A stretch of 64,000 nucleotides of DNA from a virus (taxonomy: Duplodnaviria > Caudoviricetes): positions 109,849 to 173,848 of the IMG/VR virus record IMGVR_UViG_3300028603_000022; one strand, 5' to 3'. Below, in pieces: positions 14,895-15,689 of this stretch. The notes under the pieces are model-generated. The model searched no databases and had not been told where the DNA came from. It saw only the letters and a program-made list of their open reading frames with translations. A program made the translations under genes and the position numbers. How positions within the stretch are numbered: position 1 is the stretch's first letter; each line of letters begins with the position of its first letter.

Positions 14895-14929
14895 GAGCCG
14901 GTAGTTCAGTGGCAGAACGTGGAACTTTT
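14895..14929 (+). pseudogene. 5' half of a class I tRNA (probably Lys UUU)
   Basis: GAGCCGG-TA-GTTC-AGTGGCA-GAAC-G-TGGAA-CT-TTT then breaks off. Confidence 0.7.
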
Positions 14930-14932
14930 TTT

Positions 14933-15018
14933 GGACACGTATGCAAGCGGTCAAAGCGAAGGAACTTTTAATTCCTCGGCGAAAGCCTACGTGGGTTCAA
15001 ATCCCACCGTGTCCTCCA
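14933..15018 (+). tRNA. tRNA with UUU (Lys) anticodon and long variable arm
   Basis: GGACACG/CGTGTCC acceptor, AGGAA-CTTTTAA-TTCCT, GGC-GAAA-GCC extra arm, GTGGG-TTCAAAT-CCCAC, TCCA end. Confidence 0.85.
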
Positions 15019-15078
15019 TGTTTTATTCGAACTCGAACACTAATTATTTCATGGATTAATTCGAGTTCGAATAAAACA
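15019..15078 (+). promoter_or_regulatory. 19-bp perfect hairpin occluding the HNH translation start
   Basis: TGTTTTATTCGAACTCGAA (15019-15037) / TTCGAGTTCGAATAAAACA (15060-15078), ATG at 15079. Confidence 0.7.
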
Positions 15079-15652
15079 ATGAAAAAGTTTCATAAAATAA
15101 ATGGGTATATATTAAGGTATAAACCTAACCATCCTAAAGCCTTTACTAAAGGTAAAGCAGGAAAGAACGGACACGAAGGTTATGTGTATGAGCACGTATT
15201 GGTGGCGGAGAAAAAATTAGGACGCCTTTTAGAAAAAGATGAAGAAGTTCATCATCTAGACTTAGTTAGGTCCAATAATAGACCTAATAATTTAATAGTT
15301 ATTCTTAAATCTGAGCACATGGCATTACATGCTTGGTTAGACAAAATAGGGTATACATGTGACAACGTATCACATTTAGACAGGGAATACGAATGTATTC
15401 CTAGATGCGGATACTGTAAATTTCCTATAATGGATAAGCAAAAGCATTGTTCTAAAAAATGTCAACTCAAACATGTAGATAAAAAAATTGCGTAAAAAAA
15501 AGGCGGATAAAAATAAATTACATAAGTTGCTGTTAAAATATTCTTTTGTTAAAGTTGGTAAACTTCTGGACTTATCAGATAATGGGGTTAGAAAATACGC
15601 AATTAGATTGGGCTTAGACCCAAAGTATTACACACAATATAAACGGGGTTGA
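15079..15652 (+). mobile_element. HNH homing endonuclease (HNH + Zn finger + HTH), frameshifted at 15481-15487
   Basis: YVYEHVLVAEKKLGRLL...VHHLDLVRSNNRPNNL; CxxC...HCSKKC; +1 frame continues KVGKLLDLSDNGVRKYA to TGA at 15652. Confidence 0.8.
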
Positions 15653-15689
15653 TCGAAGGCCGAGGGTTCAAATCCCTCCGGGTTCACCA
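15652..15689 (+). pseudogene. 3' half of a tRNA
   Basis: ATCGA-AGGCC-GAGGG-TTCAAAT-CCCTC-CGGGTTC-ACCA with no 5' half in front of it. Confidence 0.75.

What the first reader, a model, noticed from the sequence alone, without database searches (positions are those of the whole stretch)
14895..15689. HNH endonuclease cassette that breaks tRNA genes at the anticodon and brings a replacement tRNA(UUU)
Seen: a tRNA 5' half stops at ...GGAA-CT-TTT. A complete, dissimilar tRNA with the same GGAACTTTT anticodon arm follows, then a hairpin, an HNH gene, and a tRNA 3' half beginning at the HNH stop codon. The halves do not match (stem TGGAA vs ATCGA), so two different tRNA genes were truncated. Established: free-standing homing endonucleases such as T4 SegB spread within phage tRNA regions. 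Inference: an intron-less homing unit that destroys the resident tRNA-Lys gene and supplies a cleavage-resistant substitute.
Basis: partly seen in the sequence, partly recalled or inferred. Interest (0 to 1): 0.75.

Follow-up and report, generated by a model that had tools for sequence, protein, structure and literature searches.

The report
Nuclease cassette splits phage lysine tRNA
A selfish DNA-cutting-enzyme gene that carries its own spare lysine-type tRNA sits inside the anticodon loop of this large phage's original tRNA gene and has left it in two dead halves; related phages carry the same enzyme family inside self-splicing introns at exactly that tRNA position.

Summary

The claim that two different tRNAs were truncated is not supported. 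The acceptor strands of the halves pair 6/7. In a sister phage (L024/L153) the corresponding halves pair 7/7 around a different HNH plus a different tRNA-Lys. 'ATCGA' is a remnant of a long variable arm, not an anticodon-stem strand.

The W 5' half ends after U36 and the L024 3' half starts at A37. That is the intron site in relative L163, where a group I intron holds an HNH of the same family. The family lives almost only in phage tRNA arrays (15 of 16 loci, against 3 of 53 for distant HNH_3). The layout 'half, whole tRNA, HNH, half' recurs in L165 and L166.

Best reading: a ribozyme-less homing cassette that broke one resident tRNA(UUU) gene and supplies a substitute. Resistance of the substitute to cleavage is untested. 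The frameshift is identical in five assemblies, so the nuclease is probably decaying.

This scan has found the same architecture before on other DNA (Arg, Leu, Pro, Asn).

The parts
14895..14929 (+). 5' half of the resident tRNA: acceptor strand 14895-14901, D arm 14904-14918, 5' strand of the anticodon stem 14920-14924, loop C32-U36 14925-14929. It ends after U36.
   Evidence: Sequence. Half-tRNA HMM hit 14898-14928, score 8.9. The acceptor strand pairs 6/7 with 15679-15685.
14930..14932 (+). TTT junction between the 5' half and the nested tRNA. Together with the anticodon it forms a run of 7 T and may mark a microhomology joint.
   Evidence: Sequence. The microhomology role is inferred.
14933..15018 (+). 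Nested complete tRNA(UUU), 86 nt: 3-bp D stem, D loop AAGCGGTCAAA, long variable arm GGC-GAAA-GCC, U73, CCA encoded. It is the only tRNA(UUU) in the 174-kb genome.
   Evidence: ARAGORN on the window and on the whole genome. Rfam tRNA 52.0 bits, the lowest of the three tRNAs here.
15019..15078 (+). Perfect 19-bp hairpin that ends at the base before the HNH start codon and would hide the ribosome-binding region.
   Evidence: -29.1 kcal/mol, z = -7.2. Inverted repeat I1, 100% complementary. A similar hairpin with shared arm sequence precedes the HNH in L165.
15079..15495 (+). HNH endonuclease gene, first reading frame (138 aa, HNH_3 domain at aa 37-82), stopped by a TAA at 15493-15495 after the frameshift.
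   Evidence: Pfam PF13392 E = 4.2e-12. phrog_15471 E = 1.3e-16. 55-57% identical to the intact 184/185-aa proteins P0002 and P0001.
15481..15487 (+). A7 run where the reading frame shifts by +1. One A fewer would give a continuous gene of about 190 codons.
   Evidence: Sequence. Identical in five assemblies. Homologues have no such break.
15479..15652 (+). HNH gene, second reading frame (+1): the conserved C-terminal region (..SFVKVGKLLDLSDNGVRKYAIRLG..), with stop TGA at 15650-15652.
   Evidence: Aligns with the C-terminal SDNG..K(W/Y) region of the family. No Pfam hit on its own.
15653..15689 (+). 3' half of the resident tRNA: variable-arm remnant 15653-15661, T arm 15662-15678, acceptor strand 15679-15685, A73, CCA. 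Positions 37-43 are missing.
   Evidence: Half-tRNA HMM 15655-15686, score 13.6. Rfam tmRNA-end match 15645-15689. 79% direct repeat of 14990-15023. By my count, 82% identical over 28 nt to the 3' half in L024 (sequences).

Best explanation
One resident tRNA gene has been split at the anticodon loop, after U36, by a mobile cassette. The resident gene has a UUU anticodon, a class-I-type D arm and a long variable arm. The cassette consists of a complete tRNA(UUU), a hairpin that hides the ribosome-binding region, and an HNH_3 homing endonuclease gene.

The enzyme belongs to a family specialised on phage tRNA genes. In some phages it sits inside a self-splicing group I intron at this same tRNA position. 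In others it stands free between tRNA genes. Here it has no ribozyme, so the broken outer gene cannot be restored by splicing, and the cassette's own tRNA supplies the function instead.

Likely history (inferred). The nuclease cut a nuclease-free copy of the tRNA gene in a mixed infection. Repair copied the nuclease gene together with its linked tRNA. The left joint formed by microhomology between the TTTT of the anticodon and a T run in front of the incoming tRNA.

The nuclease gene now carries a fixed +1 frameshift and is probably decaying. The nested tRNA remains the phage's only tRNA(UUU).
For: Shown:
- Anatomy at the stated coordinates.
- No group I intron in 13000-17000 at E <= 1.
- Acceptor strands pair 6/7 here. 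The corresponding halves in sister phage L024 (= L153; clamp loader 79% identical) pair 7/7, around a different HNH (phrog_4234, E = 6e-21) plus a class I tRNA-Lys.
- The W 5' half is complete to U36, and the L024 3' half starts exactly at A37. That half is 77.6% identical over 49 nt to the 3' part of the nested tRNA. The variable-arm stem covaries (GGC/GCC against GGA/TCC).
- In L163 an HNH of the same family lies in an Rfam group I intron (69.3 bits, cut-off 50) between matched tRNA(CAU) halves, with the exon junction CTCAT|...|AACCGG, that is 36/37.
- 15 of 16 full-length family members lie among tRNA genes, and 13 of 16 lie within 100 nt of a same-strand tRNA. Only 3 of 53 loci with distant HNH_3 genes hold any tRNA.
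- The same nested layout, with 7/7 acceptor pairing, occurs in L165 (nested tRNA-Met plus a similar hairpin) and L166 (nested tRNA-Thr in a Thr-like split gene). Split genes without a nested tRNA occur in L175 and L017.
- These cases are scattered on the HNH tree.
- W's closest HNH relatives, L003/L159 and L013, both directly follow a tRNA(UUU) (clade support 97/93).
- This is the only HNH_3 gene in W, and no W-type HNH was found in the L024-type genome.
- Relatives L020, L024 and L030 lack this cassette.
Against: - No clean empty-site allele was found. The flanks are rearranged in L020 and L024, so the insertion event is not seen directly.
- Acceptor pairing in W is only 6/7, and the nested tRNA's own 5' strand also pairs 6/7 with the 3' half.
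- The T run makes the anticodon of the broken gene ambiguous: UUU is the most economical reading, UAA is possible.
- Nuclease activity and target site are unknown.
- The gene is frameshifted in all five assemblies.
- The nested tRNA has the same anticodon arm as the presumed target.
- In L165 the identity of the split gene is unclear: its loop reads CTCCTAT.
Confidence: 0.7

Rival explanations
1. Degenerate intron. The locus began as a tRNA(UUU) gene with a group I intron that encoded the HNH, as in L163. The ribozyme core and positions 37-43 of the 3' exon were later deleted, and the complete tRNA was acquired secondarily to replace the lost function. This differs from the best explanation only in the order of events.
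For: The same HNH family is intron-encoded in L163 at the same 36/37 site. ORF-less group I introns occur in tRNA genes of L174 and L175. In every ribozyme-less case the HNH stop codon lies within 20 nt of the T stem of the 3' half.
Against: No trace of a ribozyme core in W, in L165, L166 or the L175 split gene, or in L017. W's nearest HNH relatives (L003, L013) are free-standing after an intact tRNA-Lys with no halves. The model needs similar deletions several times, plus insertion of a tRNA at the same spot in three lineages.
Confidence: 0.2
2. Two different tRNA genes of an array were each truncated, and the cassette replaced the DNA between them.
For: The 5' half has a class-I D arm while the 3' half keeps a remnant of a long variable arm. 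TGGAA and ATCGA do not pair.
Against: Acceptor strands pair 6/7 here and 7/7 in L024, L165, L166, L175, L017 and L163. There is a compensatory 5:68 change between W and L024. L024's matched pair combines the same two features: a class-I D arm and a long variable arm.
Confidence: 0.07
3. Replacement of the 3' end, as with integrating elements. The cassette carried only a T arm and an acceptor strand, joined them to the resident 5' part to make the 'nested' tRNA, and displaced the original 3' end downstream. On this reading the upstream 5' half is an unrelated relic.
For: 14990-15023 and 15661-15694 are 79% direct repeats flanking the hairpin and the HNH. The nested tRNA's 5' strand pairs 6/7 with the 3' half.
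Against: The nested tRNA's own acceptor stem is a perfect 7/7. In L165 and L166 the 3' half does not resemble the nested tRNA's 3' end but pairs 7/7 with the orphan 5' half. This model leaves the 5' half, which ends exactly at U36, unexplained.
Confidence: 0.05
4. A working split or spliced tRNA: the two halves are joined at the RNA level by an unknown mechanism.
For: The halves are retained with pairing acceptor strands in several phages. Nested tRNA-like 'introns' have been reported in Lak megaphages (PMC6784885).
Against: Positions 37-43 (A37, A38 and the 3' strand of the anticodon stem) are absent from W. The 5' strand is absent from L024 and L166. Mismatches have accumulated: G6.G67 in W and A50.A64 in L024. 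No ribozyme is present.
Confidence: 0.02

Closest known systems
T4/T6 SegB, a free-standing GIY-YIG homing endonuclease in the tRNA gene cluster (PMC2330249; PMC2988022; PMC13096335)
   Same: A free-standing nuclease gene inside a phage tRNA cluster. It cuts within tRNA genes and drags neighbouring tRNA genes along. Its homologues are often next to tRNAs. Hairpins that hide the ribosome-binding region are described for segB, mobE and I-TevI-III.
   Different: A different nuclease fold (GIY-YIG, not HNH_3). SegB lies between intact tRNA genes. Here the gene lies inside a broken tRNA gene together with a same-anticodon spare.
[quoted passage not shown]
   Same: The target and insertion site is the anticodon loop of a tRNA gene, after a U. 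A member of the present HNH family (L163) is itself encoded in such an intron.
   Different: In the window there is no ribozyme, and the 3' exon is truncated. Function cannot return by splicing and is supplied by a second gene. From my own knowledge, the cyanobacterial enzyme is not an HNH protein.
Collaborative or trans homing and intron-less homing (PMC3984707; PMC2790892)
   Same: A free-standing nuclease whose target is an intron insertion site. L174 shows this: an ORF-less intron in tRNA(CAU) with the family HNH 23 nt downstream.
   Different: In those cases the carrier allele is protected by the intron. Here it would be protected by disruption of the target plus a divergent spare copy.
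Aeh1 mobE splitting nrdA ('genes in pieces', PMC3045599; PMC2988022) and fractured genes (PMC2677866)
   Same: A homing endonuclease gene inserted inside a host gene without an intron.
   Different: There the two protein pieces reassemble. Here the RNA gene is dead and is replaced by a carried copy.
Lak megaphage tRNA 'introns', one of which may itself encode a tRNA (PMC6784885)
   Same: A tRNA nested inside a phage tRNA gene.
   Different: No nuclease gene was described there, and the feature was left unexplained.
Synthetic Cleave-and-Rescue gene drives (own knowledge: Oberhofer, Ivy and Hay 2019)
   Same: The logic is the same: a nuclease destroys the resident copy and a linked, recoded copy rescues the function.
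   Different: That system is engineered, uses Cas9 and works in insects. This is an analogy of logic only, and rescue and resistance are untested here.

Membership tests
Pfam HNH_3 (PF13392) endonuclease | Profile match above the curated cut-off | tested here: met
   45.9 bits against a cut-off of 24.8, E = 4.2e-12, aa 37-82. It is the only HNH_3 match in the genome.
Pfam HNH_3 (PF13392) endonuclease | Conserved His/Asn/His and Cys residues of the family | tested here: met
   The columns invariant across 13 family members (HHLD, NN.P.NL, H..LH, C..C, CS..C) are all present in the window protein.
Pfam HNH_3 (PF13392) endonuclease | Uninterrupted reading frame | tested here: not met
   +1 frameshift in the A7 run 15481-15487, identical in five assemblies. 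The C-terminal region is still open in the +1 frame.
Free-standing (intron-less) homing endonuclease gene | Not inside a self-splicing intron or an intein | tested here: met
   No Intron_gpI match at E <= 1 in 13000-17000. There is no room for a core between the tRNA, the hairpin, the ORF and the 3' half.
Free-standing (intron-less) homing endonuclease gene | Presence or absence varies among related genomes | tested here: met
   No match in the L024-type genome G001. No such gene appears in the syntenic region of L020 or L030.
Free-standing (intron-less) homing endonuclease gene | Cuts the nuclease-free allele and is inherited preferentially in mixed infection | not testable with these tools
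   Needs enzyme assays and phage crosses.
Group I intron in a tRNA anticodon loop | Ribozyme core between the exons | tested here: not met
   None in the window. Present in relative L163 (69.3 bits, cut-off 50).
Group I intron in a tRNA anticodon loop | The 5' exon ends with a U in the anticodon loop | tested here: met
   The 5' half ends ..CTTTT (U36). L163 and L017 end ..CTCAT.
Group I intron in a tRNA anticodon loop | Both exons complete, so that splicing gives a tRNA | tested here: not met
   The 3' half lacks positions 37-43.
tRNA (the nested gene) | Cloverleaf that scores above the Rfam cut-off, with a 7-nt anticodon loop | tested here: met
   52 bits against a cut-off of 29. ARAGORN cloverleaf with a 7/7 acceptor stem and the loop CTTTTAA.
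tRNA-Lys (identity of the nested gene) | Charged with lysine | not testable with these tools
   The UUU anticodon fits. The class-II-like body and U73 are atypical. Charging needs experiment.

The most novel reading that the evidence does not exclude
A natural 'cut-and-rescue' drive aimed at a tRNA gene. The HNH cuts ordinary tRNA(UUU) genes at the DNA that encodes the anticodon loop. The linked tRNA(UUU) is built on an atypical class-II-like body, and this makes it refractory to the nuclease. It may also make the tRNA refractory, at the RNA level, to host anticodon nucleases that attack tRNA-Lys. The cassette would then spread an anti-defence tRNA between phages. On this reading, two different cassettes in co-occurring sister phages compete for the same site.
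Probability: 0.25. Interest if true: 0.85.

Novelty: new variant of a known kind. Interest (0 to 1): 0.6.

Why it matters
Homing endonucleases usually avoid harming their host gene by hiding in a self-splicing intron or intein, or by sitting between genes. This locus and its relatives show a third solution for RNA genes: break the gene and carry a working copy.

The family spans all these states:
- inside an intron (L163);
- next to an intron-bearing tRNA (L174);
- free-standing between tRNA genes;
- inside a broken gene, with or without a spare tRNA.

It is therefore a good system for asking how mobile introns and free-standing nucleases turn into one another.

It would also explain orphan tRNA halves and oddly shaped tRNAs in large phage genomes. 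It gives a route by which phage tRNA genes move between phages; some of these are known counter-defences against host tRNA-cutting systems (PMC13096335; PMC11555353).

For annotation, such halves should not be called pseudo-tRNAs of unknown origin or 'tRNA introns'.

Tried and rejected
- Exact-pattern scans for the 5' half, the 3' half and the anticodon-plus-variable arm in viral contigs found nothing. The 5' half found nothing in bacterial genomes either.
- Close-relative scans with the upstream 210-aa protein and with the single clamp-loader sequence found nothing. An alignment-based scan worked.
- The metagenome scan for AATTCCTCGGNGAAANCC gave 120 hits, nearly all by chance. Only L110, a tRNA-Leu(UAA) with a similar arm, was tRNA-like.
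- GGAACTTTTAATTCC in bacterial genomes: none of 120 sampled hits lay in a tRNA, so this anticodon arm is not a common bacterial tRNA-Lys feature and gave no host clue.
- A late-promoter motif in the hairpin loop: CTAATTNTTT is not enriched (4 matches against 2.4 expected), so this stays untested.
- Reading the joined halves as a tRNA: ARAGORN accepts many junctions only at a lowered threshold and assigns arbitrary anticodons, so this was not informative.
- A sequence search of solved structures with the family profile gave nothing meaningful.
- Assigning the split genes by similarity to intact tRNAs gave Lys for W, Thr for L175/L166 and Met for L163/L017/L020, but was ambiguous for L165 and L024.

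Full report
**What the window is**
The window is the last 64 kb of a 173,848-bp IMG/VR virus record, estimated 96% complete. It has no close cultured relative: the clamp loader is at most 33% identical to any isolate. The whole genome holds three tRNA genes, all in this region:
- Leu(UAA) at 13674-13751
- Met(CAU) at 13765-13839
- an 86-nt tRNA(UUU) at 14933-15018

**The observation**

- **5' half.** 14895-14929 reads GAGCCGG TA GTTC AGTGGCA GAAC G TGGAA CTTTT. This is a tRNA from position 1 to U36, followed by TTT.
- **Nested tRNA.** 14933-15018 is a complete tRNA. It has a perfect acceptor stem, a 3-bp D stem, the loop CTTTTAA, a long variable arm (GGC-GAAA-GCC), U73 and CCA.
- **Hairpin.** A perfect 19-bp hairpin (-29.1 kcal/mol, z = -7.2) ends one base before the ATG at 15079.
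- **HNH gene.** The ORF is an HNH_3 endonuclease (E = 4.2e-12; phrog_15471).
  - It stops at 15493-15495 after an A7 run.
  - It continues in the +1 frame to the TGA at 15650-15652.
  - The +1 part aligns with the conserved C-terminal region of intact 184/185-aa homologues.
- **3' half.** Directly after the stop come TCGAAGGCC, a T arm (GAGGG TTCAAAT CCCTC), CGGGTTC, A and CCA.

Half-tRNA HMMs built from 70 phage tRNAs score both orphan halves like true halves.

The stretch 14600-16000 is identical in four further assemblies from other samples. The frameshift is therefore real.

**One gene or two?**
Three observations argue for one gene.

- The two acceptor strands pair at 6 of 7 positions.
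- ATCGA lies in a stretch (CGAAGGCC) that matches the loop and 3' strand of the long variable arm of the intact tRNA (CGAAAGCC).
- The 3' half is thus cut short at its 5' side and holds no anticodon-stem strand at all.

The comparison with L024 weighs most. L024 is a 174-kb sister phage whose clamp loader is 79% identical. It is identical in this region to IMG/VR record L153, which comes from the same sample as a W-type contig. After the conserved upstream hairpin, L024 has the following:
- a 5' half: GAACTCG TA GCTC AGCTAGTA GAGC
- a different, small HNH gene (phrog_4234, E = 6e-21)
- a class I tRNA-Lys(UUU)
- immediately after it, AATTCCT CGGAGAAATCCAAA GAGGG TTCGATC CCCAC CGAGTTC A CCA

Several features link the two loci.
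- The L024 acceptor strands pair 7/7.
- The L024 3' half starts exactly at A37, where the W 5' half ends at U36.
- The L024 3' half is 77.6% identical over 49 nt to the 3' part of W's nested tRNA.
- The variable-arm stem covaries (GGC/GCC against GGA/TCC).
- Between W and L024 the acceptor pair 5:68 differs by a compensatory change (C:G against T:A).
- Each locus also carries a mismatch that looks like later decay: G6.G67 in W and A50.A64 in L024.

I read this as one resident gene, broken at the same point in two sister phages by two different nuclease-plus-tRNA cassettes. In each phage the side next to the nuclease ORF is trimmed.

**Other relatives**
- L020 (clamp loader 90%) has an intact class I tRNA-Lys with no nuclease beside it. 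Its tRNA-Met, however, is split by a third, unrelated HNH_3 gene (phrog_59), whose stop codon lies in the anticodon loop.
- L030 (61%) has only Leu and Met.

No clean empty site for the W cassette was found, because the flanks are rearranged.

**The nuclease family**
W's nearest relatives are L003/L159 and L013, at 55-57% identity and with clade support 97/93. They are intact genes, and each starts 16-29 nt after a class I tRNA-Lys(UUU).

A profile scan of IMG/VR gave 16 distinct full-length members.
- 15 of the 16 lie among tRNA genes.
- 13 of the 16 are within 100 nt downstream, or 40 nt upstream, of a same-strand tRNA.
- By contrast, only 3 of 53 loci with more distant HNH_3 genes contain any tRNA.

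Six members lie between matched tRNA halves.
- **W:** 6/7 acceptor pairing, with a nested tRNA.
- **L165:** 7/7, with a nested tRNA-Met and a hairpin before the ATG that shares arm sequence with W's.
- **L166:** 7/7, with a nested tRNA-Thr inside a Thr-like split gene.
- **L175 and L017:** 7/7, with no nested tRNA.
- **L163:** 7/7.

In L163 the insert is a bona fide group I intron (Rfam 69.3 bits, cut-off 50). Its 5' exon ends CTCAT and its 3' exon starts AACCGG, which is site 36/37.

[quoted passage not shown] This is the layout of collaborative homing (PMC3984707).

No ribozyme core was found in W, L165, L166, the L175 split gene, or 12 further loci.

The nested layout is scattered on the HNH tree, so it arose repeatedly or was lost repeatedly. 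In all three nested cases the nested tRNA has the lowest Rfam tRNA score of its locus (52.0, 53.3 and 58.5). This fits divergent, atypical bodies.

**Mechanism**
Shown:
- the anatomy
- the absence of a ribozyme
- the shared 36/37 site
- the family's tie to tRNA genes
- the recurrence of the layout

Inferred: the enzyme recognises tRNA-gene DNA around the anticodon loop. A break in a nuclease-free allele is repaired from the carrier, which copies the nuclease gene and its linked tRNA. Where homology on the left is poor, the joint forms by microhomology; here that would be the TTTT of the anticodon with a T run before the incoming tRNA. L003 has such a T run (TTTTTTCTT) before its tRNA-Lys. The broken target makes the carrier immune, and the carried tRNA makes up for the loss.

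The hairpin probably keeps the nuclease untranslated on read-through transcripts, as described for I-TevI-III, segB and mobE (PMC2988022). A start site inside the hairpin is not supported: the loop motif is not enriched.

The fixed frameshift suggests the nuclease is no longer needed, or is made only rarely by slippage on the A run. That last point is speculation.

**What remains open**
- Whether the nested tRNA resists the nuclease. Its 15-nt anticodon arm equals that of the broken gene and of L024's class I tRNA-Lys. That arm is not a common bacterial tRNA-Lys arm. The identity may reflect gene conversion around the break site, and it argues against the anticodon arm alone being the discriminating target.
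- Whether the nested tRNA is charged with lysine. It has a class-II-like body and U73.
- Whether the broken gene read UUU or UAA.

**Literature and novelty**
Published precedents cover several parts of this picture:
- free-standing nucleases in tRNA clusters that cut within tRNA genes and move or amplify tRNA genes (SegB: PMC2330249, PMC13096335)
- nuclease genes that split protein genes (PMC3045599)
- a Lak megaphage tRNA 'intron' that may itself encode a tRNA (PMC6784885)

My searches of the held library found no description of a nuclease that breaks a tRNA gene and carries a same-anticodon spare. I rate it a new variant of a known kind.

Within this scan the same architecture has already been reported and followed up on other genomes, for Arg, Leu, Pro and Asn. 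The group I link and the recurrence were tested independently here. The present case adds three things:
- a Lys(UUU) example on a class-II-like body
- two different cassettes at one site in co-occurring sister phages
- a decaying nuclease

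Noticed in passing
window 14933-15018: The only tRNA(UUU) of the genome has a class-II-like body: a 3-bp D stem, the D loop AAGCGGTCAAA (it resembles bacterial tRNA-Tyr; that comparison is from my own knowledge), a 14-nt variable arm with a GAAA loop, and U73. Which amino acid it carries is unknown. tRNA-Lys is a known target of host anticodon nucleases (own knowledge).
   Followed up: partly
window 13674-13751: The tRNA-Leu(UAA) of this phage and of L020 is only 78 nt, with a short variable region. 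In L024, L030, L003 and L013 it has the usual long arm. So in W the Leu tRNA looks class I and the 'Lys' tRNA looks class II.
   Followed up: no
window 15982-16257: A stretch of about 275 nt with no long ORF is 86% identical to L020 4982-5253, where it directly follows the intact tRNA-Lys. It has no Rfam family.
   Followed up: no
window 14488-14678: A non-coding stretch ending in a perfect 14-bp GC-rich hairpin (14635-14674) is conserved in L020 (3031-3187) and L024 (4637-4793). In L024 the 5' tRNA half follows it within 6 nt.
   Followed up: no
window 15029-15035 and 15062-15068; L024 4801-4812; L165 2426-2467: The arms of the hairpin before the HNH contain GAACTCG and CGAGTTC, which are exactly the acceptor-stem strands of the broken tRNA in L024. 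The 9-mer AACTCGAAC also sits at the 5' edge of L024's 5' half and in both arms of the L165 hairpin (3 matches in the window against 0.44 expected). It could be an operator-like copy of the homing site, as described for I-TevI (PMC2988022). This is speculative.
   Followed up: partly
L020 1898-2734: In the 90% relative the tRNA-Met gene is split by an unrelated 232-aa HNH_3 gene (phrog_59). The halves pair 7/7, the ORF's stop codon TAA lies in the anticodon loop, and no spare tRNA-Met is seen on the 16-kb contig.
   Followed up: partly
L174 2171-2477 and 2501-3082; L175 1894-2222: There are ORF-less group I introns in a phage tRNA(CAU) gene and a phage tRNA-Leu(UAA) gene (55 and 62 bits). In L174 the family HNH stands free 23 nt downstream of the intron-bearing tRNA.
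   Followed up: partly
L026 and L153 (JGI sample 3300015214): The W-type phage and the L024-type phage occur in the same metagenome sample, and each has a different cassette in the same broken tRNA gene. Mixed infection and competition between the cassettes are therefore plausible.
   Followed up: no
L030 10665-14915: In the 61% relative the ribonucleotide reductase gene carries an intein with an HNH_3 domain (precomputed Pfam hits). This is another nuclease of the same Pfam family in a different kind of selfish element.
   Followed up: no
L169 3273-3668: A phage contig with a family HNH also encodes a full tmRNA (130.6 bits), directly after a tRNA array.
   Followed up: no
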